A stretch of DNA of 64,000 nt, taken from positions 2,364,241 through 2,428,240 of the forward strand of contig OZ242948.1 in assembly GCA_965211635.1 (NCBI GenBank), read 5' to 3'. The position numbers and the translations under genes were made by a program. Below, one piece after another: positions 2,458-59,978 of the stretch. The notes beneath the pieces were generated by a model. It worked only from the letters and a program-made list of their open reading frames with translations. It ran no database searches and was not told where the DNA came from. This DNA comes from Dehalococcoidia bacterium. Its GTDB lineage: Bacteria > Chloroflexota > Dehalococcoidia > Bin125. Each line of letters opens with the position of its first letter. Position 1 is the first letter of the stretch.

Positions 2458-3930
2458 TTACCCGCCTCCGCCTCCGCCGCCCGCGCCACCACCACCCGCT
2501 CCGGTTCCTAGACGCTCTGCCGCTGAGTGCTGCGGAGCCTGACGTGTCGCCATCGCGTTGACTGCCTGCACCGCATGCGCTGCCGCCGCTGAGGCTCGCT
2601 CTGCCGCAGCGACCGTAGCTGCTCGAATCCGACTCTCCTCAACCAACCCGCCGTGACGCAGTGTCGCCCGCAACCGTGGCATGCCCAGCGCCCAGAGGAT
2701 GAGCGCAATCGCAAACAGAATTCCCGGCACGACCAGCAGGAACCGTACGTTGATGAAGTCCGCCGCTAATCCGTTGACCAGGATCATCAGCGCCATGATG
2801 CCCCCGGCGAACATCGCGTATAGCGACATCACGCGACCGCGGATCGCGTCCGGCACCACCGATTGAATCATCACGGAACTGAGCGCCATGAACATCGCCT
2901 GGCTCGATCCCGCAAGGGCCGCTCCGAGAATCGCGATTGGCAGTGTGCCCGCCAGTCCAAGGACGGGCAGTGAGAGGCCGCTGGCGACTCCTGTAAAGAG
3001 CATCAGTCGACCGCGGATTGGACCATCGGGCACCATCGACAACGCGATAGTGGCCACCAGCGCTCCGCCCCCGACACCCATCAGCAGGTAACCGAATTCG
3101 CTCTCGCTTCCGAGCAGAACGTCAACTGCAAAGGCGCGAAGGAGGGCATCGAACGACATCGCCAGCATGCAGTGGACAGCGGTCAGTGCAATCAGCATCC
3201 GCACGCCTTTGGCCACACCCAGGTAACGCAATCCTTCGCGTACGTGGGCTGCTGCATCGACGAGAATGCCGCTGAAGTGAGTCGAGCCGCCGACGATTCC
3301 GCCGGTCGAGCGAACCGTGATGCGCGTCAACTGCCAGACCGAGATCAACAGCAGCACCGCAGCACCGGCGAACACCCATTCCGGACCAAGTTCCTTCATC
3401 ACCGGACCGGCGACCGGGCCGATCACCCGCGATCCGAACTGCATCATCGACGCCAACGTGATCGCCGACAGCAGCGCCGCCATCTTGACCGTGTTGGGCA
3501 ACAACGCGGCCTGCGCCGGCATCTCGCCCGAGCGAATCACACCGGACAGGAACGTGATCAGGATTAGATTCCACAGGGAGATCTGATCGGTGAACGCCAG
3601 CAACGCCAGCAGTGCGGCCAGCACAGCCGCCCCGAGCCGACAGATCATCACCACCCGCGCCCGATCGAACCGATCGGCGAAGGCGCCTCCGATTGGAGCC
3701 AGAACCCAGGGACCAATCGCCGCGAAGTAGACGACGCCGACCGCCCAGTTGGCATCGGCCAACTCCCCCGCGAGCCATCCCCGAGCCGTAATCAGCGCCC
3801 ACAGGGACACCGCCGAGAGTCCCGCCGAGTAGAACAGTTTGCGGTACTCGACGGACTCCATCGCCGGGAATATCCGCAGCATGCGCCCGGGCTGCTGCGT
3901 CCCCGGCTCCATACTCCCCGATTGCGACAT
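2458..3930 (-). CDS. MFS transporter (EntS/MFS_3-like), paralog 1, poly-Gly C-terminus
   Basis: Motif A GGAFADRFDRARV, C-half PDAIRGRVMS, about 12 hydrophobic segments; start taken at MSQSGSM (3930). Confidence 0.9.
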   Translation of the reverse strand: MSQSGSMEPGTQQPGRMLRIFPAMESVEYRKLFYSAGLSAVSLWALITARGWLAGELADANWAVGVVYFAAIGPWVLAPIGGAFADRFDRARVVMICRLGAAVLAALLALLAFTDQISLWNLILITFLSGVIRSGEMPAQAALLPNTVKMAALLSAITLASMMQFGSRVIGPVAGPVMKELGPEWVFAGAAVLLLISVWQLTRITVRSTGGIVGGSTHFSGILVDAAAHVREGLRYLGVAKGVRMLIALTAVHCMLAMSFDALLRAFAVDVLLGSESEFGYLLMGVGGGALVATIALSMVPDGPIRGRLMLFTGVASGLSLPVLGLAGTLPIAILGAALAGSSQAMFMALSSVMIQSVVPDAIRGRVMSLYAMFAGGIMALMILVNGLAADFINVRFLLVVPGILFAIALILWALGMPRLRATLRHGGLVEESRIRAATVAAAERASAAAAHAVQAVNAMATRQAPQHSAAERLGTGAGGGGAGGGGGGG

Positions 3931-3993
3931 CGATTGACTCCGCTCTCCCACTGACCACGCGGCGGCGTCTGGCCGCCTGCTCGGCACTGCAGG

Positions 3994-5430
3994 TTAGTCG
4001 CCGCCGCTGCCCAGCCGCTCCTCGACCACGCTCCGCTGAGGCGCCGGACGCGACGCCAGGACCACGGGCCGCAGCGCAGCGGAGGCCGTCGCCGCCGCTT
4101 GCCGAGCAACCTCACGCGCCATCCGCCGACCCTCCTCAACAAGTTCGCCGTTGCGAATCACTGACCGGATCCCTGGTAGGACCAACGCGGCAAGCATGAT
4201 CGCAGCGAAAACAAAGCCGGGCCCAACCAACAGCAGACGAATGCTGATGTAATCCGCCGCCAGCCCATTGACCAGGATCATCACTGCCATGATCCCTCCC
4301 GCGAACATCATGTAGAGGCTCATCACGCGACCACGCACGGCGTCGGGCAGAACAGCCTGGATCATGGCGCTGGTCAGGACCATGAACATCGCCTGACTTG
4401 CCCCCGCAATCACGCTTCCGATCAACGCCATCAGCAACGAATCCACCAATCCGACCCAGACCAGGGAAAGCCCAGAAACAATCCCCGCGACGATGAAAAC
4501 GCGCCCGCGGATGGCGCCAATCGGCAACATCGACAATCCCACCGACGAAACCAGCGCACCACTGCCGAGCGCCATCAGCAGGTATCCGTACTCCGACTGC
4601 CCACCGCCCAGGATCAGGTCTGCGTAGGCCGGCAACAGCGAGAAGTCGAAGGCCATCGTGAACATGCAGTGCAACGAGACCATGATGATCATCAACCGCA
4701 CCGACGGCGTACGACCGAGATAGCGCAATCCATCGCGGATATGACTAACGGTGTCGCGAAGTAGTCCGCCCGTGTGACCCGCGATGCCGCCCGTCGATCG
4801 AGTGGTCATCCGGGTCATTTGCAGAATCGACAGCATCAGGAACAACGCCGCCCCAACGAACACCCACTCGGCGCCGAATGCCTGCAGAACTGGACCCGCA
4901 ACCGGGCCAATCACCTTGGACCCGAACTGCATCATCGAGGCCATCGTGACCGCGCTCAACAAGGCATGCAGCTTGACCGTGTTCGGCAACAGCGCCTGCA
5001 GCGCCGGCATCTCTCCCGAGCGAATGATGCCCGAGATCAACGTGATGATTACCAGATTCCAAATCGTCAACTGACCGCTGAACGCCAGGAAGGCAAGTCC
5101 GAGCGCGCACAATGCCGCCCCGCAGCGGCAGATGATCACGATCCTGGCACGATCGAAGCGGTCCGCCAGCGCGCCTGCGAACGGCGCCAGCACCCACGGA
5201 AAAATCGCCGCAAAGGTGACAATCCCGGTGCCCGATGGATTGCCGGTCAGCTCATAGCCCAGCCAGCCACTAGCGACGATCATCGCCCACAGAGAAACCG
5301 AAGAGAGCCCCGCCGCGTAGAACATACGGCGGTACTCGAGATATTCCAGGGCTGGGAATATGCGCAACAGCCAACCCGGCTGCGCAGGTTTCCGCAGCGT
5401 TGGGGAACGGCTCGGGGCCTGTTGACTCAT
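3994..5430 (-). CDS. MFS transporter (EntS/MFS_3-like), paralog 2
   Basis: AGALADRFDRARI and PDAVRGRVMS; clearly paralogous to the neighbour (shared RSGEMPA.QA.LLPNTVK, ASMMQFGS.VIGPVAGP). Confidence 0.9.
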   Translation of the reverse strand: MSQQAPSRSPTLRKPAQPGWLLRIFPALEYLEYRRMFYAAGLSSVSLWAMIVASGWLGYELTGNPSGTGIVTFAAIFPWVLAPFAGALADRFDRARIVIICRCGAALCALGLAFLAFSGQLTIWNLVIITLISGIIRSGEMPALQALLPNTVKLHALLSAVTMASMMQFGSKVIGPVAGPVLQAFGAEWVFVGAALFLMLSILQMTRMTTRSTGGIAGHTGGLLRDTVSHIRDGLRYLGRTPSVRLMIIMVSLHCMFTMAFDFSLLPAYADLILGGGQSEYGYLLMALGSGALVSSVGLSMLPIGAIRGRVFIVAGIVSGLSLVWVGLVDSLLMALIGSVIAGASQAMFMVLTSAMIQAVLPDAVRGRVMSLYMMFAGGIMAVMILVNGLAADYISIRLLLVGPGFVFAAIMLAALVLPGIRSVIRNGELVEEGRRMAREVARQAAATASAALRPVVLASRPAPQRSVVEERLGSGGD

Positions 5431-33236: not shown

Positions 33237-33243
33237 CCGCGAT

Positions 33244-33295
33244 CCCCTCTCCCCCCGCGCAGCGGGGGGAGATGCCGAAGGCAGAGGGGGGCTCC
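33244..33295 (+). repeat. Family A repeat
   Basis: CCCCTCTCCCCCCGC-GCA-GCGGGGGGAGA-TGCCGAAGGCA-GAGGGGGGCTCC. Confidence 0.92.
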
Positions 33296-37868: not shown

Positions 37869-38113
37869 CCCCTCTGCCTGAGGGAGAGAGTCAGTGCCTG
37901 CCCCCGCGACGGCGGGGGGTGAGGGCCTCCGGTCGGGCTGATGGAAGGAGGGCCCTCACCCCAATCCTCTCCCAGAGGAGACTTTCGCGTAACCCAGCCA
38001 AAGTCGTCCCCGCGCAGGCGGGGACCCGTGGCGCCTATCTGATCACGGCGCCCCCGCCTACGCGGGGGCGACTTCATCGAGAGATTACGCGCAGGTCTCC
38101 AGAGGGAGAGGGA
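37869..38113. repeat. Inverted doublet of family B repeats; first carries the nested mini-hairpin, second is split by a MITE
   Basis: 37869-37925 CCCCTCTGCCTGAGGGAGAGAGTCAG[TGCCTGCCCCCGCGACGGCGG]GGGGTGAGGG; 37953-37976 plus 38101-38113 CCCTCACCCCAATCCTCTCCCAGA//AGAGGGAGAGGG. Confidence 0.85.
37977..38100. mobile_element. ~124-bp MITE, copy 1
   Basis: Ends GGAGACTTTCGCGTAA ... TTACGCGCAGGTCTCC, flanked by a direct repeat centred on AGA; near-identical inverted copy at 48638. Confidence 0.85.
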
Positions 38114-38199
38114 GCCGGAGAGAAGGCGTTGCGGTTAACTGGATCGCAACCGATGGATCGGCTCCCTCGATAGACTGTGTGCCAGTGGAGGAGGCCCCG

Positions 38200-48596: not shown

Positions 48597-48637
48597 CCAT
48601 CGCGGCTCTCGCCCCCCCTCTGATCCCCTCTCCCAGA

Positions 48638-48761
48638 GGAGACCTGCGCGTAATCTCTCGATGAAGTCGCCCCCGCGTAGGCGGGGGCGCCGTGACCAGA
48701 TAGGCGCCACGGGTCCCCGCCTGCGCGGGGACGACTTTGGTTGGGTTACGCTCAAGTCTCC
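48638..48761. mobile_element. ~124-bp MITE, copy 2 (inverted relative to copy 1), inside a family B hairpin
   Basis: CCCTCTCCC-AGA-[GGAGACCTGCGCGTAA ... TTACGCTCAAGTCTCC]-AGA-GGGAGAGGG. Confidence 0.85.
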
Positions 48762-48815
48762 AGAGGGAGAGGGAGTTAAACCAAACAACACACTCAAGAT
48801 GCCTTGCACCGATGC

Positions 48816-51951: not shown

Positions 51952-52656
51952 TCAGTGATTCGACTCATTAGCGACCCTGCTTCCCCGCTTCCCCCTGGGG
52001 GGAAGCTGGCCCGTAGGGACTGAAGGGGGGACGCCGACAGCCCTATCGGTGAGCGCCCCTCGCAAGAACGACTCGGCCCGATCAAGATCCTCAGGGCGAT
52101 TCACGTTGGTGAACGACTCCAGCTCCGGATCAATACGCCGCAGTTCGGCTTCGCCAAGCAGCTTGTGCGTTACCAGCGGCAGCAGCGCCCGCACTCGACC
52201 GTCGCCTTCATCCAGCAGCCGCCTCGCGTGTGCGACAACAGAAGGTCGGTACGCGGCCAACAGCGGTTGAGCCACCCCGTCGAGATAGGGCATCGCGATC
52301 TCGACGCCGCTGCAGGCGTCGGCGACGGCGCGTAGCAGGTTGGGTCGCAGAAGCGGCATGTCGCAAGCGACGGCGACGGCTAGGTCGTGCCTGATCAGCG
52401 GCAGCGACGCTTCGAGTCCGGCCAACGGGCCGCGGTCGTGGCGGTGATCGACCGCCTCGCGCCAATCGACCCCGTCCAGAGGCGGCAACTGCTGGTCCGG
52501 TCGACGGGCGACGACGATGTCGTCGGTGACCTGGGATGCGGCGAAGGCGCTCCAGTGCAGCAGCGGACGTCCACCGGCCATCGCAGTGGCCTTGTCGCGG
52601 CCCAGGCGTCGGCCGAATCCGCCGGCGAGGATGATCACGGAACAGGCTTCACTCAT
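51952..52656 (-). CDS. mobA: Molybdenum cofactor guanylyltransferase
   Basis: ILAGGFGRRLGRDK, GPLAGL, ACDMP, QPLLAAY, FTNVNRPED. Confidence 0.92.
   Translation of the reverse strand: MSEACSVIILAGGFGRRLGRDKATAMAGGRPLLHWSAFAASQVTDDIVVARRPDQQLPPLDGVDWREAVDHRHDRGPLAGLEASLPLIRHDLAVAVACDMPLLRPNLLRAVADACSGVEIAMPYLDGVAQPLLAAYRPSVVAHARRLLDEGDGRVRALLPLVTHKLLGEAELRRIDPELESFTNVNRPEDLDRAESFLRGALTDRAVGVPPSVPTGQLPPRGKRGSRVANESNH
51987..52030 (+). repeat. Family A variant repeat inside the 3' end of mobA
   Basis: GCTTCCCCC-TG-GGGGGAAGC-TGGCCCGTAGGGACT-GAAGGGGGG. Confidence 0.8.
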
Positions 52657-54567: not shown

Positions 54568-54733
54568 AGAGGGGCGTCCGATGTTTTGGGGTGAGGCGTA
54601 GGTATTATATAGGGTCCGAGGATGACGGGGAAAGCGGATGGATACATTTGAGAGGTCTGGTTGATTTAAGGAAGGTGTTGGCAGACATAGGTGGAGTTAG
54701 GTGACGAGGAAGTCGAGGTCGCTGGTCTCGCGG

Positions 54734-54763
54734 GAGCGGGTCCCCGCGTGAAGCGGGGACTGG
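54734..54763 (+). repeat. Family E repeat
   Basis: GAGCGG-GTCCCCGC-GTGAA-GCGGGGAC-TGG. Confidence 0.85.
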
Positions 54764-54811
54764 TGAATCCAGGACCGTTATGTGCGCTCTTCCGATGACC
54801 GCCGGTCTCCC

Positions 54812-54840
54812 TTGAGAACAGAACGAACGTTCTCTATGCT
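54812..54840 (+). promoter_or_regulatory. Sigma70 promoter with a LexA (SOS) box in the spacer
   Basis: -35 TTGAGA (54812-17), 17-bp spacer containing AGAAC-GAAC-GTTCT (54820-33), -10 TATGCT (54835-40). Confidence 0.9.
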
Positions 54841-54872: not shown

Positions 54873-56381
54873 ATGGGCGACGCTGGGATCATCGGCTGCG
54901 TCTTGGTGACTCACCTGCGGGCCCGCGTTGAGCTGGCGCGGCGGGCGGAGCTGTGGGGTCGCGCGGGGGTGATCGTCGAGCGCTCGGGGTCTCGGCCGGT
55001 GGTGATCGACTGCCTGCCGGCGGCCGAGGCGGTCGAGCTGGGGATGACGCTGGAGCAGGCGCTGTCGCTGCAGCCCGAGGCCGTCGTGCTGGAGGCGGAC
55101 GAGCCGCACTACGCGCGCGAGTTCGAGCGGCTGCTGGCCGCGCTCGACGACGTCAGCGACCGCGTCGAGGGCGCCGAAGCCGACGGCGAACTGGGCGTCG
55201 CCTACGTCGGGCTGGACGGGCTCGAGGCGATGTACGGCGGCGAGACGCCGATGCTCGACGCGCTGCTGCACGCCGTGCCCTCGCACTTCGAGCCGCGGAT
55301 CGGGATCGGCGCGGGCAAGTTTCCCGCCCTGGCGGCGGCTCGCACGCGGGGCTCGCCGGGCGTCAGCCGGGTCGGCCGGGACGCAAGAGCTACGGCGGCC
55401 TTCCTCGCGCCGCATTCAATCAACCTGCTGCCGTCGGCGCTCGTCGCGTCCGAGCTGATCGACGACCTGCACCGGCTGGGGCTGCACACGATGGGCGAGG
55501 TCGCCGGTCAGGAGATGCACGCGCTGCTGGACCGCTTCGGGCACGAGGGCCGGCGCGCCTGGGAGCTGGCCTCGGGGATCGACGAGCGCCCGCTGCGTCC
55601 GCGCGTGGCGGAGGAGTCGATTACGGAGCGGGTGGTGCTGCCGGCAGCGTCGGCCTCGCTGGAGCTGCTGCGCGTGGCGGTCGACACGCTGCTCACGCGC
55701 GTCTTCGCGCAGCCGCGGATGCAGGGCCGCTACGCAGGCTCGGCGACGCTCGTCTGCACGCTCGAGGACGCGCCCACCGAAGCGTCGGCAGCGTCGATGT
55801 GGCAGAAGGAGTTCCACTTCAAGAGCCGCGTAGGGAACTGGCAGCGGGCGGCGGAGATCGTCAAGGGCCGGCTGGAGACCGAGCATCCGCAGGCGCCGGT
55901 CGAGGCGATGAGCGTCACGCTAGGCAACCTCAGCGGGGCATCGGGCGTGCAGCTCTCGCTCTTCCCCGACCTGCGCGCCGACCGCGAGCGGCGCCTGCTG
56001 GAGACCGAGCGCCAGCTCCAGGCCCGGCTCCAGGGCAGGCACGCGCTGCACCGCATGGTCGAGGTCGCGCCCTGGCATCCGGCCCCCGAAATGCGCACCG
56101 TGCAGGTCTCGATCGACCCCGCCGCCTCAGGCGACATGCGGCCCGTCTCGGCGCCGGCCTCGGTCGAAGTCCGCGAAGGCCCCGCGCAGGAGCCGCGGGC
56201 GGTGCGGATCGGCGCCGAGTGGCAGGAGGTGTCGAGCATCGAGGACCGCTGGAGCTTCGACCTCTGGTGGCGTCCGACGCCGATGCATCGCAGCTACTAC
56301 CGGATCAGCCAGGCGGACGGTCGGCAGGTGACGATCTATCGGGACGAGGGGGAATCGCAGTGGTATCGCCAGACGGCGTGA
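54873..56381 (+). CDS. imuB: ImuB-like, catalytically inactive Y-family polymerase
   Basis: Y-family layout (GMTLEQAL, RIGIGAGKFPA, LHRLGLHTMGEV, RFG) without the catalytic D/DE; C-terminal W...WW...YYR module; directly upstream of dnaE2. Confidence 0.85.
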   Translation: MGDAGIIGCVLVTHLRARVELARRAELWGRAGVIVERSGSRPVVIDCLPAAEAVELGMTLEQALSLQPEAVVLEADEPHYAREFERLLAALDDVSDRVEGAEADGELGVAYVGLDGLEAMYGGETPMLDALLHAVPSHFEPRIGIGAGKFPALAAARTRGSPGVSRVGRDARATAAFLAPHSINLLPSALVASELIDDLHRLGLHTMGEVAGQEMHALLDRFGHEGRRAWELASGIDERPLRPRVAEESITERVVLPAASASLELLRVAVDTLLTRVFAQPRMQGRYAGSATLVCTLEDAPTEASAASMWQKEFHFKSRVGNWQRAAEIVKGRLETEHPQAPVEAMSVTLGNLSGASGVQLSLFPDLRADRERRLLETERQLQARLQGRHALHRMVEVAPWHPAPEMRTVQVSIDPAASGDMRPVSAPASVEVREGPAQEPRAVRIGAEWQEVSSIEDRWSFDLWWRPTPMHRSYYRISQADGRQVTIYRDEGESQWYRQTA

Positions 56382-56417
56382 TGGGAACGTCCCAAAGCCT
56401 GTGGCGGCGGCCACTCA

Positions 56418-56560
56418 TCTCTCCCCCCGCTCCGCGGGGGGAGATGTCGCGGAGCGACAGAGGGGGGCTCTCCGCGCTGGGAGATGCGCCCGGGTTCGCT
56501 GTCGGCTCGGAGCCTCCCTCTGCCTTCGGCATCTCCCCCCGCGGAGCGGGGGGAGAGGGG
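56418..56560. repeat. Inverted doublet of family A repeats
   Basis: 56418-56470 (+, second hairpin TGTCGCGGAGCGACA) and 56511-56560 (-, TGCCGAAGGCA). Confidence 0.92.
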
Positions 56561-56589
56561 AACGGAGGATTACGCGCACGCCGTGCCGC

Positions 56590-56683
56590 CCGAGCGGGTC
56601 CCTGCATGAAGCAGGGACTGGGAGGGCGGTTGATGCAGCGATGGGGCGTCCGAGCGGGTCCCTGTGTGAAGCGGGGACTGGGA
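56590..56683 (+). repeat. Two tandem family E repeats (60-bp period)
   Basis: CCGAGCGGGTCCCTGCATGAAGCAGGGACTGGGA and CCGAGCGGGTCCCTGTGTGAAGCGGGGACTGGGA. Confidence 0.9.
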
Positions 56684-56693
56684 CACCGTTGAC

Positions 56694-59600
56694 ATGACCT
56701 ACGTCGAGTTGCACGCCAAGAGTTTTCATTCCTTCGGGCTGGGCGCCTCGCACGGGCATGAGCTGCTGGCCCAGGCTCGGACGCTGGGGATGCCGGCGCT
56801 GGCCCAGACCGACACCAACCTGTGCGGCGCGCTGGAGTTCGCCCGGCTGGCGAACAGCCTGGAGATTCAGCCGATCACCGGCGGCGAGATCACGCTGCAG
56901 GACGACTCCCGCGTCACGCTGCTGGTCAAGTCGCGCGAGGGCTACGCCAACCTGTCGCGGCTGTTCACGCTGGCCAACACTGTGGACCGTCGAGAGCCTC
57001 GGCTGGATCCGGCCCACCTGTCCGAGCATGCCGAGGGATTGGTGCTCCTGGCAGGCGGGCGGCATGGGGCGCTGTCGCGAGTGGCGCTGGCCGGCGAGCG
57101 GGCCGAGGCTCGAGAGTTGCTGGGTCGCTATCGCGACTGGTACGGCGCGGACTCGGTCTACGTCGAGCTGCAGCAGAACTTCCTGCGTGGCGACACCGAG
57201 CGCAACCGCGAGCTAGTCGGGCTGGCCCGCGAGGTTGGCGCGCCGCTGGTCGCGTCCAACGACGTCCATTACCACGCGCCCGAGCGCTACCGGCTGCAAC
57301 ACGCACTGGTCGCGTCCAAACACAACGTGACCATCGACCAGGCCCTGCGACACATACAACCCAATCATCATCTGCACCTCAAGTCCGCAGCGCAGATGGC
57401 GGAGCTGTTCTCCGAGTTCCCCGAGGCCATCTGCAACACGCTGCGGGTCGCCGAGCAGTGCGCGTTCAACCTCAGCGTCGACCTCGGCTACACCCTGCCC
57501 GAGCCGTTGGTGCCCGAGGGCTACACGCCGCAGAGTTATCTCCGCCGTCTCTGCGAGGAGGCCGCGGCGCGGCGCTACGGCTCGGTCACGCCGGAGGTTG
57601 AGGAGCGGTTGGAGGAGGAGTTCAACCTGATCGGGCGACATAAGCTGGCCGGGTTCCTGCTGCTCTATCGCGAGATCGTGCGGCTGGCCCAGCGGATCAT
57701 GGAAGAGCGCGGCCTGGCCGAGCCGGAGACGCCGCTGGAGAAGCGACCGCCCGGTCGCGGGCGCGGATCGTCGGTGGCGCTGCTGGTCGGCTACCTGATC
57801 GGGATCAGCCACGTCGATCCGCTCAAGTGGGAGCTGACGCTCGAGCGCTTCCTGCCCGACGACATGACGTCCTTGCCCGACATCGACCTCGATTTCCCGC
57901 GCGGGCTGCGCGATGAGCTGATCGAGCGGGTGCACGAGTACTTCGGCCGCGACTACGCCGTCCTGACCGGGGCGATCTCGACCTACTCGGTCAAGGGCAT
58001 CATCCAGGATCTGGGCAAGGCGCTCGGTCTGCCGCCGGACGATCTGCGCCTCTTGTCGAAGCAGATTCACTCGCACGACGGGGCGCGGCTGCGCGAGGAG
58101 ATGGAGCAGCTTCCGGCCTTCCGCGACAAGGTCGAGGCGCACGGCTGGCGCGACCTGATCGCGCTCGCGCCGCAGTTGATGAACGCGCCGCGCGGGCTGG
58201 GTCAGCACGTGGGCGGGATGATCCTCTCGGACTCGCCGATTCCCGAGATGGTGCCGGTGCGGGCCGGCGCGATGGCGGGTCGCTACATCATGGACTGGAA
58301 CAAGGACAGCGTGGCCGACGCCAACTTCGCCAAGATCGACCTGCTCTCGCTGCCCGTGCTCGACCAGTTGGAAGAGGCGCTGGACCTGATCGAACAGCGC
58401 ACCGGCGAGCGTCCCGACCTGAGCCGGATCAGCCCCGAGGACCCGGGCGTCTACGACATGATCAACGCGGGCAAATCGAAGGGCGTCTTCCTGCTGCAGT
58501 CGCCGGCGCAGCTCAAGATGGGCCAGCGGCTCAGATCGCGGCGGCTGCTGGATTTGGCCTACCAGGTGGCCTTAATCCGGCCCGGAGTGGGAACGCAGGG
58601 CAGCGCGGTCAGCCAGTTCGTCGAGCGTTACCGGCACGGCGTCCCGTGGGAGTACGACCATCCGCTGGAGGAGCGGGCGCTGGAACGCGGCTACGGTGTG
58701 ATCGTCTGGCAGGAGCAGGTGGTCCAGTTGATCATGGACGTGGCCGGGATGTCGGCGGCCGAGGCCGACGAAGTGCGCCGCGCGTTTGCCCGGGCGAACA
58801 ACGAGCACCTGATCGCGATGCACCGCGAGCGCTTCCTCGAGGGCGCGCGGGCCAACAGCGTGCCGGACGACGTCGCCGAGACGATCTTCGCCAAGATCAA
58901 CGGGCACTACATGTTCCCCGAGTCGCACTCGCACGCGTTCGCGATCACCGCTTACCAGGCGGCCTGGCTGAAGCGCTATCACCCGCTGGAGTTCTTCGTC
59001 ACGTTGATCAACAACCAGCCCATGGGCTTCTACCCGGTCGAGACGCTGAAGCAGGACGCCCGCAAGTTCGGCGTGCAGTTCCTCAACCCCTGCGTCAATC
59101 GCAGCGAGGTACAGGCGAGGCCCGCACTCTCCTCTCCCCCCGCGCAGCGGGGGGAGATGCCGCAGGCAGAGGGGGGTCCTTTCCAGATAGCCACCGCTGG
59201 GGAGCCCCCCTTCAGTCGCTTCGCGACAGCTTCCGCCCAGAGGGGGGAAGCGGAATCTATCGGCAATCTCTCGCAGGCAGCCCGTCTCGGCCTGGGGATG
59301 ATCAAGGACATTGGACCCGAGTCGGCCCGGCTCATCGTCGAGGAACGGGAGGCGCGCGGTCCCTACTCCGATGCGGGCGAACTGGTCAGAAGGACGGGGC
59401 TGAAGCCGCAGTCGGTGCGATCGCTGATCGAGGCGGGCGCGTTCGACGCCATGACGCCCAACCGCCGTGAGGCCTTGTGGGAAGCCGGACTCTCGATCCG
59501 CCCCGCGCGCTCCGGCCAACGCGCGTTCCCGGTCCATGGCTCGGAGGCGCCGCCGCGCTTCGACGATTTCACGGACTACGAGAAGATGGTCGGCGAATAC

Positions 59601-59978
59601 AAGACGCTGGGCATCTACCCCTCAGGGCACGTGATGGAGTTCATCCGCCCGACGCTGGACGGGGGCGTGCTGACCACCGCCCGGGTCTACGACTGCGCCG
59701 ACGGCGAGCGCATCCGCGTGGCCGGCTGGCCGATCGCGCGGCAGCACCCGCGCGGCCAGGACGGGACGGTGTTTGTCACGATCGAGGACGAAACCGGCGA
59801 CGTGCAGTCGATCGTCTGGCCCCAGGTATTCGCCAAGTGCCGTCGGGCGCTGTCGAATCAGCTCATCCTGCTGCAGGGCCGAATCGACCGCTGGGACGGC
59901 ACGACGAACATCGTGGCCGAGCGGATCGACGCGATCGGCGCCGACATTCGCATGCCCAGCGCCCACGACTGGCACTGA
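56694..59978 (+). CDS. dnaE2: Error-prone DNA polymerase III alpha subunit
   Basis: YVELHAKS PHP start, GRGSS, ERFL...PDIDLDF, QHVGG, FPESHS, NNQPMGFY, OB-fold FVTIEDETG, C-terminal AHDWH. Confidence 0.95.
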   Translation: MTYVELHAKSFHSFGLGASHGHELLAQARTLGMPALAQTDTNLCGALEFARLANSLEIQPITGGEITLQDDSRVTLLVKSREGYANLSRLFTLANTVDRREPRLDPAHLSEHAEGLVLLAGGRHGALSRVALAGERAEARELLGRYRDWYGADSVYVELQQNFLRGDTERNRELVGLAREVGAPLVASNDVHYHAPERYRLQHALVASKHNVTIDQALRHIQPNHHLHLKSAAQMAELFSEFPEAICNTLRVAEQCAFNLSVDLGYTLPEPLVPEGYTPQSYLRRLCEEAAARRYGSVTPEVEERLEEEFNLIGRHKLAGFLLLYREIVRLAQRIMEERGLAEPETPLEKRPPGRGRGSSVALLVGYLIGISHVDPLKWELTLERFLPDDMTSLPDIDLDFPRGLRDELIERVHEYFGRDYAVLTGAISTYSVKGIIQDLGKALGLPPDDLRLLSKQIHSHDGARLREEMEQLPAFRDKVEAHGWRDLIALAPQLMNAPRGLGQHVGGMILSDSPIPEMVPVRAGAMAGRYIMDWNKDSVADANFAKIDLLSLPVLDQLEEALDLIEQRTGERPDLSRISPEDPGVYDMINAGKSKGVFLLQSPAQLKMGQRLRSRRLLDLAYQVALIRPGVGTQGSAVSQFVERYRHGVPWEYDHPLEERALERGYGVIVWQEQVVQLIMDVAGMSAAEADEVRRAFARANNEHLIAMHRERFLEGARANSVPDDVAETIFAKINGHYMFPESHSHAFAITAYQAAWLKRYHPLEFFVTLINNQPMGFYPVETLKQDARKFGVQFLNPCVNRSEVQARPALSSPPAQRGEMPQAEGGPFQIATAGEPPFSRFATASAQRGEAESIGNLSQAARLGLGMIKDIGPESARLIVEEREARGPYSDAGELVRRTGLKPQSVRSLIEAGAFDAMTPNRREALWEAGLSIRPARSGQRAFPVHGSEAPPRFDDFTDYEKMVGEYKTLGIYPSGHVMEFIRPTLDGGVLTTARVYDCADGERIRVAGWPIARQHPRGQDGTVFVTIEDETGDVQSIVWPQVFAKCRRALSNQLILLQGRIDRWDGTTNIVAERIDAIGADIRMPSAHDWH
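59131..59253. repeat. Family A inverted doublet inserted in-frame in dnaE2
   Basis: 59131-59176 CCTCTCCCCCCGCGCAGCGGGGGGAGATGCCGCAGGCAGAGGGGGG, and 59201-59253 the reverse complement of the 51987-type variant. Confidence 0.9.

What the first reader, a model, noticed from the sequence alone, without database searches (positions are those of the whole stretch)
59105..59285. Palindromic repeat doublet translated in-frame inside the SOS polymerase DnaE2
Seen: 59 residues separate VNRS from RLGL (...SSPPAQRGEMPQAEGGPFQIATAGEPPFSRFATASAQRGEAE...). Their DNA is a near-exact copy of the intergenic family A repeat (compare 33244) plus an inverted variant copy (compare 51987). The frame and catalytic PDIDLDF motif are intact. 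Knowledge: this loop is usually short but length-variable in DnaE/DnaE2, and Rickettsia palindromic elements are the precedent for selfish repeats creating new peptide inside proteins. Inference: an RPE-like process operates in this lineage and has added roughly 45 aa to a mutagenic polymerase.
Basis: partly seen in the sequence, partly recalled or inferred. Interest (0 to 1): 0.78.

Follow-up and report, generated by a model that had tools for sequence, protein, structure and literature searches.

The report
Hairpin repeat doublet translated inside DnaE2
A small hairpin-forming DNA repeat that litters this uncultured Dehalococcoidia genome sits in frame in a surface loop of the error-prone polymerase DnaE2, adding about 48 disordered residues; this is a real but already documented kind of event, notable mainly because relatives show the same loop being filled, rebuilt and emptied repeatedly.

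Summary
Window 59131-59176 is a 46-nt copy of a dispersed hairpin repeat: 93% to 33237-33291, and 79 genome copies at up to 3 mismatches against 0 for the reversed pattern. Positions 59203-59255 hold a diverged inverted copy. Both are read in frame inside a 1094-aa DnaE2 gene that follows imuB. Across 76 distinct DnaE2 sequences the LNPC..MIK segment is 27 aa in 61. It is 75 aa here, and longer forms are almost all confined to the closest clade, where length, sequence and reading frame differ between species.

The rest of the gene is under purifying selection (dN/dS 0.08-0.13). Contigs from four runs of two studies bridge both junctions. AlphaFold gives pLDDT under 50 for residues 813-859, between confident strands.

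My reading is a REP/RPE-like selfish repeat tolerated at a beta-hairpin tip that acts as a gain-and-loss hotspot. In-frame REPs, including in DnaE2 genes, were published in 2013. This scan had already noted in-frame repeats in valS, ftsK and murE of this same genome. So this is a new member of a known kind. No RAYT transposase was found, so the mobilising mechanism is unknown.

The parts
56694..59978 (+). dnaE2 (imuC-type error-prone Pol III alpha paralog), 1094 aa, intact
   Evidence: Searches give the ORF. Pfam finds PHP, DNA_pol3_alpha, finger, HHH_6 and an OB fold. The best NCBIfam model is NF004225, error-prone DNA polymerase, at 811.7 bits, which is below its cut-off of 939. A separate replicative dnaE lies at G000:C1:2032669-2035092, 32% identical.
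59124..59267 (+). Net insert relative to empty-site orthologs: about residues 811-858, 48 aa / 144 nt, boundaries uncertain by about 9 nt
   Evidence: Protein alignments. pLDDT is under 50 for residues 813-859, with no secondary structure, between strands at 794-797 and 861-864.
59131..59176 (+). Element A, 46-nt core. It has an 11-bp C/G hairpin (59133-59143 paired with 59147-59157), a 4-bp mini-hairpin (59158-59161 paired with 59165-59168), then a G-run that mirrors the hairpin's G arm. It is read as SPPAQRGEMPQAEGG.
   Evidence: copies at 90-98%; fold; 79 copies against 0 for the control.
59177..59202 (+). Spacer of the doublet
   Evidence: 19 of 70 high-identity A copies have an inverted partner 15-45 nt downstream, median 27 nt.
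59203..59255 (+). Element B, a diverged inverted copy of the same architecture. Its C-run pairs with the G-run of A in the single-strand fold.
   Evidence: I11, 85% to 51991-52030; copies at 88-94%; DNA fold -42.7 kcal/mol, z -3.83, 0 of 200 shuffles as stable.
59256..59282 (+). Probable relic of an older A-like copy. Relatives have a full element ending at this same junction.
   Evidence: Tail alignment. This part is inference.
54873..56381 (+). imuB-like Y-family gene directly upstream of dnaE2
   Evidence: Pfam IMS PF00817, E 4e-07.
54821..54832 (+). GAAC-N4-GTTC box, a candidate LexA site 41 nt before the imuB ATG
   Evidence: It is the only match in the 64-kb window; 0.84 matches are expected anywhere in the window by chance. 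The LexA assignment is recalled knowledge of Gram-positive-type SOS boxes and was not tested.
56382..56693 (.). imuB-dnaE2 spacer packed with four repeat copies: 56409-56475 and 56505-56561 of the A type, 56587-56623 and 56647-56683 of a second family

Best explanation
A dispersed, non-coding, hairpin-forming repeat of this genome has been inserted at the tip of a beta-hairpin in the HhH/beta-binding domain of DnaE2. The hairpin lies between the conserved NPCVNRS and RLGLGMIKD strands and corresponds to E. coli Pol III alpha residues 819-832. The copy here is a doublet: element A, a spacer, and an inverted variant B.

The insertion survives for three reasons. The element has no stop codon in any of its six frames. 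The net gain is a multiple of three (144 nt). And this site tolerates a floppy Pro/Gly/Ala/Ser/Glu-rich loop.

The polymerase stays functional and the insert is most likely a neutral or slightly costly passenger. In this genus the same spot is a hotspot. An older copy abutting the 3' junction is shared by several species. Later events have since added to or removed from it: new copies or doublets, tandem duplications, a nested palindrome and deletions. As a result close relatives differ in the length, sequence and even reading frame of the insert.

Shown: repeat identity, the empty site, the open frame, purifying selection, junctions present in independent read sets, and a disordered model. 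Inferred: the order of events, tolerance as the cause of the hotspot, and lack of function. The enzyme that moves the repeat is unknown.
For: Reading the consensus shown shows all six frames are open.

Empty site: 61 of 76 distinct DnaE2 sequences have a 27-aa LNPC..MIK segment. 12 sequences, all in the closest clade, have 39-108 aa. The other three are L015 and L055 with 32 aa and L021 with 28 aa.

Tree: the filled L017 is sister to the empty L058, local support 0.99, and both come from one genome record. The empty L010 is nested inside filled alleles, support 0.99. By my own reading of the tree, at least 5 state changes are needed in this clade.

Each insert carries the repeat subtype common in its own genome. 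The insert of L006 contains a piece of a different repeat that has 8 more copies in its genome.

dN/dS of the gene without the insert is 0.081-0.158 against nine relatives. Contigs from runs X1, X3, X4 and X5 (two studies) bridge the left and right junctions with 0 differences, at the same depth as the flanks in X1 (131-146), and no empty-site joint was listed at the insert. AlphaFold2 gives pLDDT under 50 for 813-859, flanked by blocks at 88-91 and 90.

Other in-frame copies in this genome have Pfam domains on both sides.
Against: No mobilising enzyme was found: RAYT/Y1 transposase PF01797 gave 0 hits in a genome that is 96.6% complete. No target-site duplication was seen.

The identical 3' junction and frame in several lineages, and in L017 outside the main filled clade, could mean gene conversion or targeted insertion rather than a simple tolerance filter.

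The A copy keeps a perfect 11-bp stem and differs from the commonest genomic form at a single core position. That fits a recent insertion, but it also fits selection on the structure.

The model is of middling quality overall (mean pLDDT 65.1, pTM 0.46, alignment of 36 close sequences), so it shows local disorder only. There is no expression or protein evidence.
Confidence: 0.85

Rival explanations
1. The insert has been co-opted. Either the hairpin/triplex-type structure inside the dnaE2 DNA or mRNA tunes expression of the mutagenic polymerase, or the extra loop modulates contacts of the beta-binding/HhH domain. On this view selection keeps some repeat at this spot.
For: Most members of the closest clade keep a repeat-derived insert across dS up to about 0.6. 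The A copy keeps intact stems. The imuB-dnaE2 spacer also holds four repeats. G/C-rich intrastrand-triplex repeats are linked to local genome instability in Holder et al. 2015 (PMC4666352; abstract and section 15 read).
Against: Length (39-108 aa), sequence and reading frame differ between close relatives. L010 and probably L048/L095 lost the insert. Genomes rich in the repeat, G017 with 61 copies and G011 with 48, have empty sites. The peptide is modelled as disordered.
Confidence: 0.1
2. The long loop is an old lineage-specific low-complexity linker that arose in place, and its likeness to intergenic repeats is compositional.
For: The genome is 64% G+C, and Pro/Gly/Ala-rich linkers are common in such genomes (general knowledge).
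Against: The A copy differs from the commonest genomic form at one core position, with the hairpins in register, and is 90-98% identical to dozens of copies. The reversed-pattern control gives 0. The whole A-spacer-B architecture recurs at 18 other sites. Empty sites dominate outside the clade.
Confidence: 0.02
3. dnaE2 here is a decaying or unexpressed gene, and the insert is one sign of that decay.
For: The NCBIfam score of 811.7 is below the family cut-off of 939. Some genomes of the genus lack a DnaE2 match or hold only fragments.
Against: The 1094-codon frame is open, with PDIDLDF and all domains present. dN/dS is 0.08-0.16. The gene sits in a conserved imuB-dnaE2 arrangement with a candidate SOS box.
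Confidence: 0.02
4. The insert is an assembly artefact: a repeat collapsed into the gene.
For: Depth in the repeat bins is inflated, because repeat copies from elsewhere in the metagenome are laid onto them.
Against: Contigs with 0 differences run from unique gene sequence into the repeat on both sides in four runs of two studies. Orthologs in other assemblies carry related inserts at the same codon.
Confidence: 0.01

Closest known systems
Intragenic GTAG/CGTC-tagged REPs, including REPs inside DnaE2 genes (Di Nocera, De Gregorio and Rocco 2013, PMC3733652; passages read)
   Same: Both are short palindromic repeats, mostly intergenic, that are sometimes wholly inside ORFs. They occur often as dimers encoding 20-30 aa or as clusters encoding 43-82 aa. 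Many lie in DNA synthesis and repair genes, and the paper names error-prone polymerases encoded by DnaE2 genes among the tagged proteins.
   Different: I read no GTAG or CGTC tag at the ends of element A in the copies. No RAYT was found. The element carries a third, mirror-repeat G block. The species and insertion sites of the published DnaE2 cases are in a supplementary .xls that I could not open, so I cannot say whether the same hairpin was hit.
Rickettsia palindromic elements (RPE; Ogata et al. 2000, as cited in PMC3733652; the original paper was not read)
   Same: Both are selfish palindromic repeats inserted in frame in genes that apparently remain functional. The added peptide lies in a loop, and several reading frames of the element are used.
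   Different: The lineage differs: free-living or sponge-associated Dehalococcoidia rather than an obligate intracellular alphaproteobacterium. The element family is unrelated and very G+C-rich. Here the same codon position shows repeated gain, rebuilding and loss among congeners.
Intrastrand triplex motifs, class II C-G-G (BoxC / PIT / TMECO; Holder et al. 2015, PMC4666352; abstract and section 15 read)
   Same: Element A has three consecutive blocks on one strand: a C-rich block, its complementary G-rich block, and a second G-rich block that mirrors the first (TCTCCCCCC / GGGGGGAGA / AGAGGGGGG). Those published motifs are abundant and are linked to local instability.
   Different: The covariation evidence is thin: 122 of 141 are mirrored against 96.7 expected, and the main subtype is its own mirror image.
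REPINs (REP doublets forming hairpins, mobilised by RAYTs; Bertels and Rainey 2011, recalled, not read)
   Same: Two inverted repeat units separated by a short variable spacer can fold into a long hairpin. 19 of 70 A copies are such doublets.
   Different: No RAYT gene was found in the genome, and the two arms belong to diverged subfamilies.

Membership tests
In-frame intragenic palindromic repeat (RPE-like / intragenic REP) | The intragenic segment is a copy of a dispersed, mostly intergenic repeat family | tested here: met
   Only 21 of 241 merged loci lie in ORFs with coding-like flanks on both sides, by a crude codon-score filter.
In-frame intragenic palindromic repeat (RPE-like / intragenic REP) | The host reading frame stays open and the gene is under constraint | tested here: met
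   1094 aa, no stop; dN/dS 0.08-0.16.
In-frame intragenic palindromic repeat (RPE-like / intragenic REP) | Homologs without the insert exist (empty site) | tested here: met
   (61 of 76 have the 27-aa segment). The empty paralog L058 lies in the same genome as the filled L017.
In-frame intragenic palindromic repeat (RPE-like / intragenic REP) | The insert lies in a surface loop and does not disrupt the fold | tested here: met
   By model only: pLDDT is under 50 for 813-859 between confident strands. The site corresponds to the 14-residue stretch 819-832 of E. coli Pol III alpha.
In-frame intragenic palindromic repeat (RPE-like / intragenic REP) | The insert-bearing protein is made | not testable with these tools
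   No RNA run was listed as holding the stretch. There are no proteomics data.
REP / REPIN mobilised by RAYT | A RAYT (Y1 transposase, PF01797) gene is present in the genome | tested here: not met
   0 matches in G000, which is 96.6% complete. The control search rings in 6 of 14 reference genomes.
REP / REPIN mobilised by RAYT | A GTAG or CGTC tetranucleotide tag at one end of the palindrome | tested here: not met
   In the 70 copies, the ends read ..ttCC-CCTCTCC.. and ..GAGGGGGG-ctcc/tcc.
REP / REPIN mobilised by RAYT | Inverted doublets with a short spacer | tested here: met
   19 of 70 copies, spacer 15-45 nt. Fold.
Intrastrand triplex motif, class II C-G-G | Three blocks on one strand, with the third block mirroring the second | tested here: inconclusive
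   122 of 141 elements are mirrored against 96.7 expected. The AGG/GGA subtype is mirrored in 7 of 7, while the AGC/TGA subtype is mirrored in 0 of 15.
Intrastrand triplex motif, class II C-G-G | Loops of 1-6 nt, as in the search criteria of PMC4666352 section 15 | tested here: not met
   Loop 1 is 3 nt, but the connector to the third block is an 11-nt mini-hairpin.
DnaE2 / ImuC error-prone polymerase | Match to the curated family model | tested here: inconclusive
   NF004225 is the best model at 811.7 bits, below its cut-off of 939. The next best model is DnaE NF004226 at 607.3 bits.
DnaE2 / ImuC error-prone polymerase | Adjacent imuB-type Y-family gene, and a separate replicative dnaE elsewhere | tested here: met
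   IMS domain in 54873-56381; second Pol III alpha at G000:C1:2032669-2035092, 32% identity.
DnaE2 / ImuC error-prone polymerase | SOS (LexA) control | tested here: inconclusive
   A single GAAC-N4-GTTC lies 41 nt upstream of imuB. LexA binding was not tested.
MITE | Terminal inverted repeats plus a target-site duplication | tested here: inconclusive
   A and B act as long imperfect inverted ends. No duplication is visible at the dnaE2 junctions.

The most novel reading that the evidence does not exclude
The hairpin tip of DnaE2 may be more than a tolerant site. It could be a directed landing and excision pad for these triplex-type repeats. The native codons there (GAR-GAY-GGN) resemble the 3' arm of the element. 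Several lineages share the identical junction and frame. And two 'empty' alleles (L010, and L048/L095) look like scars that restore exactly the ancestral length. Together these would point to a homology- or structure-guided copy-in / copy-out process, for instance template switching at hairpins during repair synthesis, acting inside the gene for the very polymerase that performs such synthesis.
Probability: 0.1. Interest if true: 0.7.

Novelty: new member of a known kind. Interest (0 to 1): 0.38.

Why it matters
This adds a clean, well-controlled example of selfish palindromic DNA living inside a functional repair gene. The controls are empty and filled paralogs in one genome, read-level support, purifying selection and a disordered model. 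It extends the phenomenon to uncultured Dehalococcoidia, whose relatives' records are largely from sponge metagenomes. Across roughly a dozen species, the series of alleles at one codon position gives a natural time course of how such inserts arise, are rebuilt and are lost. It also shows where Pol III alpha-type polymerases tolerate large insertions. The kind of event itself is not new.

Tried and rejected
- **Fuzzy regex census:** I replaced it with blastn and nhmmer.
- **align_proteins:** it failed twice because the L072 match holds a stop and the L118 match is out of frame. I dropped both rows.
- **RAYT search:** nothing found.
- **RNA evidence:** no RNA holder was listed, so nothing can be said on expression.
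- **Supplementary table of PMC3733652:** this table lists the published DnaE2 cases.
- **Literature search:** 'Dehalococcoidia', 'sponge', 'repeat', 'palindromic' gave 4 papers. None is about these repeats, judging by title and abstract.
- **Triplex covariation:** only weakly informative.
- **Intein or intron reading:** considered and dropped without a dedicated test. The insert is a repeat copy and is far smaller than introns or inteins as I recall them.
- **Clamp-binding motif:** I read the insert peptide by eye and saw none. There was no formal search.
- **Complex prediction and structure-library searches:** not run, because they would not change the verdict.

Full report
**What is there.** The ORF 56694..59978 (+) encodes a 1094-aa Pol III alpha-type protein.
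- Pfam finds PHP, DNA_pol3_alpha, finger, HHH_6 and an OB fold.
- The best NCBIfam model is NF004225, error-prone DNA polymerase, at 811.7 bits. That is under its cut-off of 939 but ahead of the DnaE models.
- Directly upstream lies an IMS-domain gene, imuB-like, at 54873-56381.
- A second Pol III alpha, 32% identical, sits elsewhere in the genome.
- The only GAAC-N4-GTTC in the window lies 41 nt before the imuB start.

I therefore accept the DnaE2 label. The curated score threshold is not reached and LexA control is only suggested.

**The observation.** Exactly 59 residues separate VNRS from RLGL.
- Window 59122-59176 is 93% identical to 33237-33291, and 59205-59244 is 85% complementary to 51991-52030.
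- The 46-nt core has 70 copies covering at least 40 of 46 nt.
- nhmmer finds 241 merged loci, 196 of them near full length.
- The element pattern with up to 3 mismatches occurs 79 times, against 0 for the reversed control.
- HHH_6, a 90-position profile, stretches over residues 793-927.

**Anatomy of the repeat.** Element A reads CCTCTCCCCCCGC, a 3-nt variable loop, GCGGGGGGAGA, the mini-hairpin TGCC-GAA-GGCA, then GAGGGGGG. So it has an 11-bp hairpin, a 4-bp hairpin and a G block that mirrors the hairpin's G arm.
- None of its six frames holds a stop, as read from the consensus.
- Element B is the same design inverted and diverged.
- 19 of 70 A copies have such an inverted partner 15-45 nt downstream, so the dnaE2 insert is a complete doublet of a recurrent type.
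- As single-stranded DNA the insert folds at -42.7 kcal/mol, z -3.83, with the G block of A pairing with the C block of B.
- The mirror symmetry recalls class II C-G-G intrastrand triplex motifs (PMC4666352; abstract and section 15 read).
- No Y1/RAYT transposase was found, and I read no GTAG/CGTC tag.

**Empty site and hotspot.** I compared 76 distinct DnaE2 sequences from genomes of the same genus and from named MAG records, mostly Dehalococcoidia. Duplicates, truncated loci, L072 and L118 were dropped.
- The LNPC..MIK segment is 27 aa in 61 of the 76. It is 75 aa here.
- 12 sequences have 39-108 aa, all of them in the closest clade. L015 and L055 have 32 aa and L021 has 28 aa.
- On a tree built without the insert columns, the filled L017 is sister to the empty L058 (support 0.99). 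Both come from one genome record.
- The empty L010 is nested among filled alleles (support 0.99).
- By my reading of the tree, at least five state changes are needed in this clade.

At the DNA level the filled alleles show several kinds of event:
- Several species share an element that ends at the same 3' junction.
- L003 and L049 have partial tandem copies.
- L008 has a 24-nt palindrome nested in the mini-hairpin.
- G009, the closest relative at 93% protein identity, reads its copy in another frame.
- G000 keeps only a short relic of the shared 3' copy, with the A-B doublet upstream of it.

Each insert carries the subtype common in its own genome. The L006 insert contains a piece of another repeat family. 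Genomes rich in the repeat can still have an empty site: G017 has 61 copies and G011 has 48.

**Is the gene alive and the insert real?**
- dN/dS outside the insert is 0.081-0.158 against nine relatives.
- Contigs of four runs from two studies run from unique gene sequence into the repeat on both sides with no differences, and no empty-site joint was listed at the insert.
- AlphaFold2, from an alignment of 36 sequences, has mean pLDDT 65.1. It gives pLDDT under 50 and no secondary structure for 813-859, between strands 794-797 and 861-864 that sit in blocks of pLDDT 88-91 and 90.
- The site aligns with the short stretch 819-832 of E. coli Pol III alpha, between PPDINS and YGIGAIKG.

**The process is genome-wide.** 21 of 241 repeat loci lie in ORFs with coding-like flanks on both sides. 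I gave 17 such ORFs to Pfam.
- A Mur ligase and a PD40/S9 peptidase have domains on both sides of the copy.
- Five ORFs each hold two CoA-transferase domains joined by repeat-coded linkers.
- A DUF255 protein carries a copy after its N-terminal domain.
- Earlier notes of this scan report in-frame repeats in valS, ftsK and murE of this same genome. The murE site coincides with my Mur ligase hit.

**Comparison with what is known.** Di Nocera et al. 2013 (PMC3733652; passages read) describe REPs wholly inside ORFs. These are often dimers of 20-30 aa or clusters of 43-82 aa, and many lie in replication and repair genes. The paper explicitly includes error-prone polymerases encoded by DnaE2 genes, and it cites the Rickettsia RPEs as the precedent. 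The table with species and positions could not be opened. A search for these repeats in Dehalococcoidia or sponge literature found nothing relevant.

**Verdict.** This is a real, well-supported in-frame repeat insertion and a new member of a known kind. Its local interest is the layered gain, rebuilding and loss at one hairpin tip. Three things remain unexplained: the scar-like 'empty' alleles that restore the ancestral length, the shared junction in L017 and L008, and the likeness of the native codons to the end of the element.

Noticed in passing
G000 genome: L032 (675390-678191), L033 (1072895-1075510), L036 (1271574-1274252), L044 (2816185-2819250), L045 (2889469-2892216): Five stop-to-stop ORFs each hold two CoA_transf_3 domains joined by one to several repeat copies read in frame. 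These may be gene fusions created where an intergenic repeat without stop codons replaced the stop of the upstream gene.
   Followed up: partly
window 56382-56693 and 54729-54765: The imuB-dnaE2 spacer is almost entirely repeats: two A-type copies and two copies of a second 37-nt hairpin family. A third copy of that second family lies upstream of imuB.
   Followed up: no
window 54821-54832: GAACGAACGTTC is the only GAAC-N4-GTTC in the window. It lies 41 nt before the imuB ATG and is a candidate LexA box for the imuB-dnaE2 pair.
   Followed up: partly
L048, L095, L011, L012 and L010, hairpin codons of dnaE2: 'Empty' alleles next to the filled clade read GGCTGAGGCGG or GGGCAGCGAGG where filled alleles have the 3' end of the element, GGCWGAGGGGG. 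They also restore exactly the ancestral length. They look like deletion scars.
   Followed up: partly
L008 (G023), dnaE2 hairpin: A 24-nt palindrome (GCCCCGCA..TGCGGGGC type) is nested inside the mini-hairpin of the resident element: a repeat inserted into a repeat inside a gene.
   Followed up: no
G003:C1 around 2111732 and 2180292: The extra dnaE2 copies or fragments of this genome, some with internal stops, carry the same element at the same place. The filled allele was therefore duplicated together with the gene.
   Followed up: partly
L006 (G021) 3930-4065: This dnaE2 insert is unrelated to family A, but it holds a 32-nt piece with 8 more copies in its genome. A second repeat family has therefore used the same hairpin.
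   Followed up: partly
window 37966-38128 and 48610-48772: A 163-nt inverted repeat pair, 90% complementary, with arms 10.5 kb apart.
   Followed up: no
L072 and L118: The dnaE2 match of L072 holds one stop codon and that of L118 is out of frame. These may be broken copies in those MAGs.
   Followed up: no
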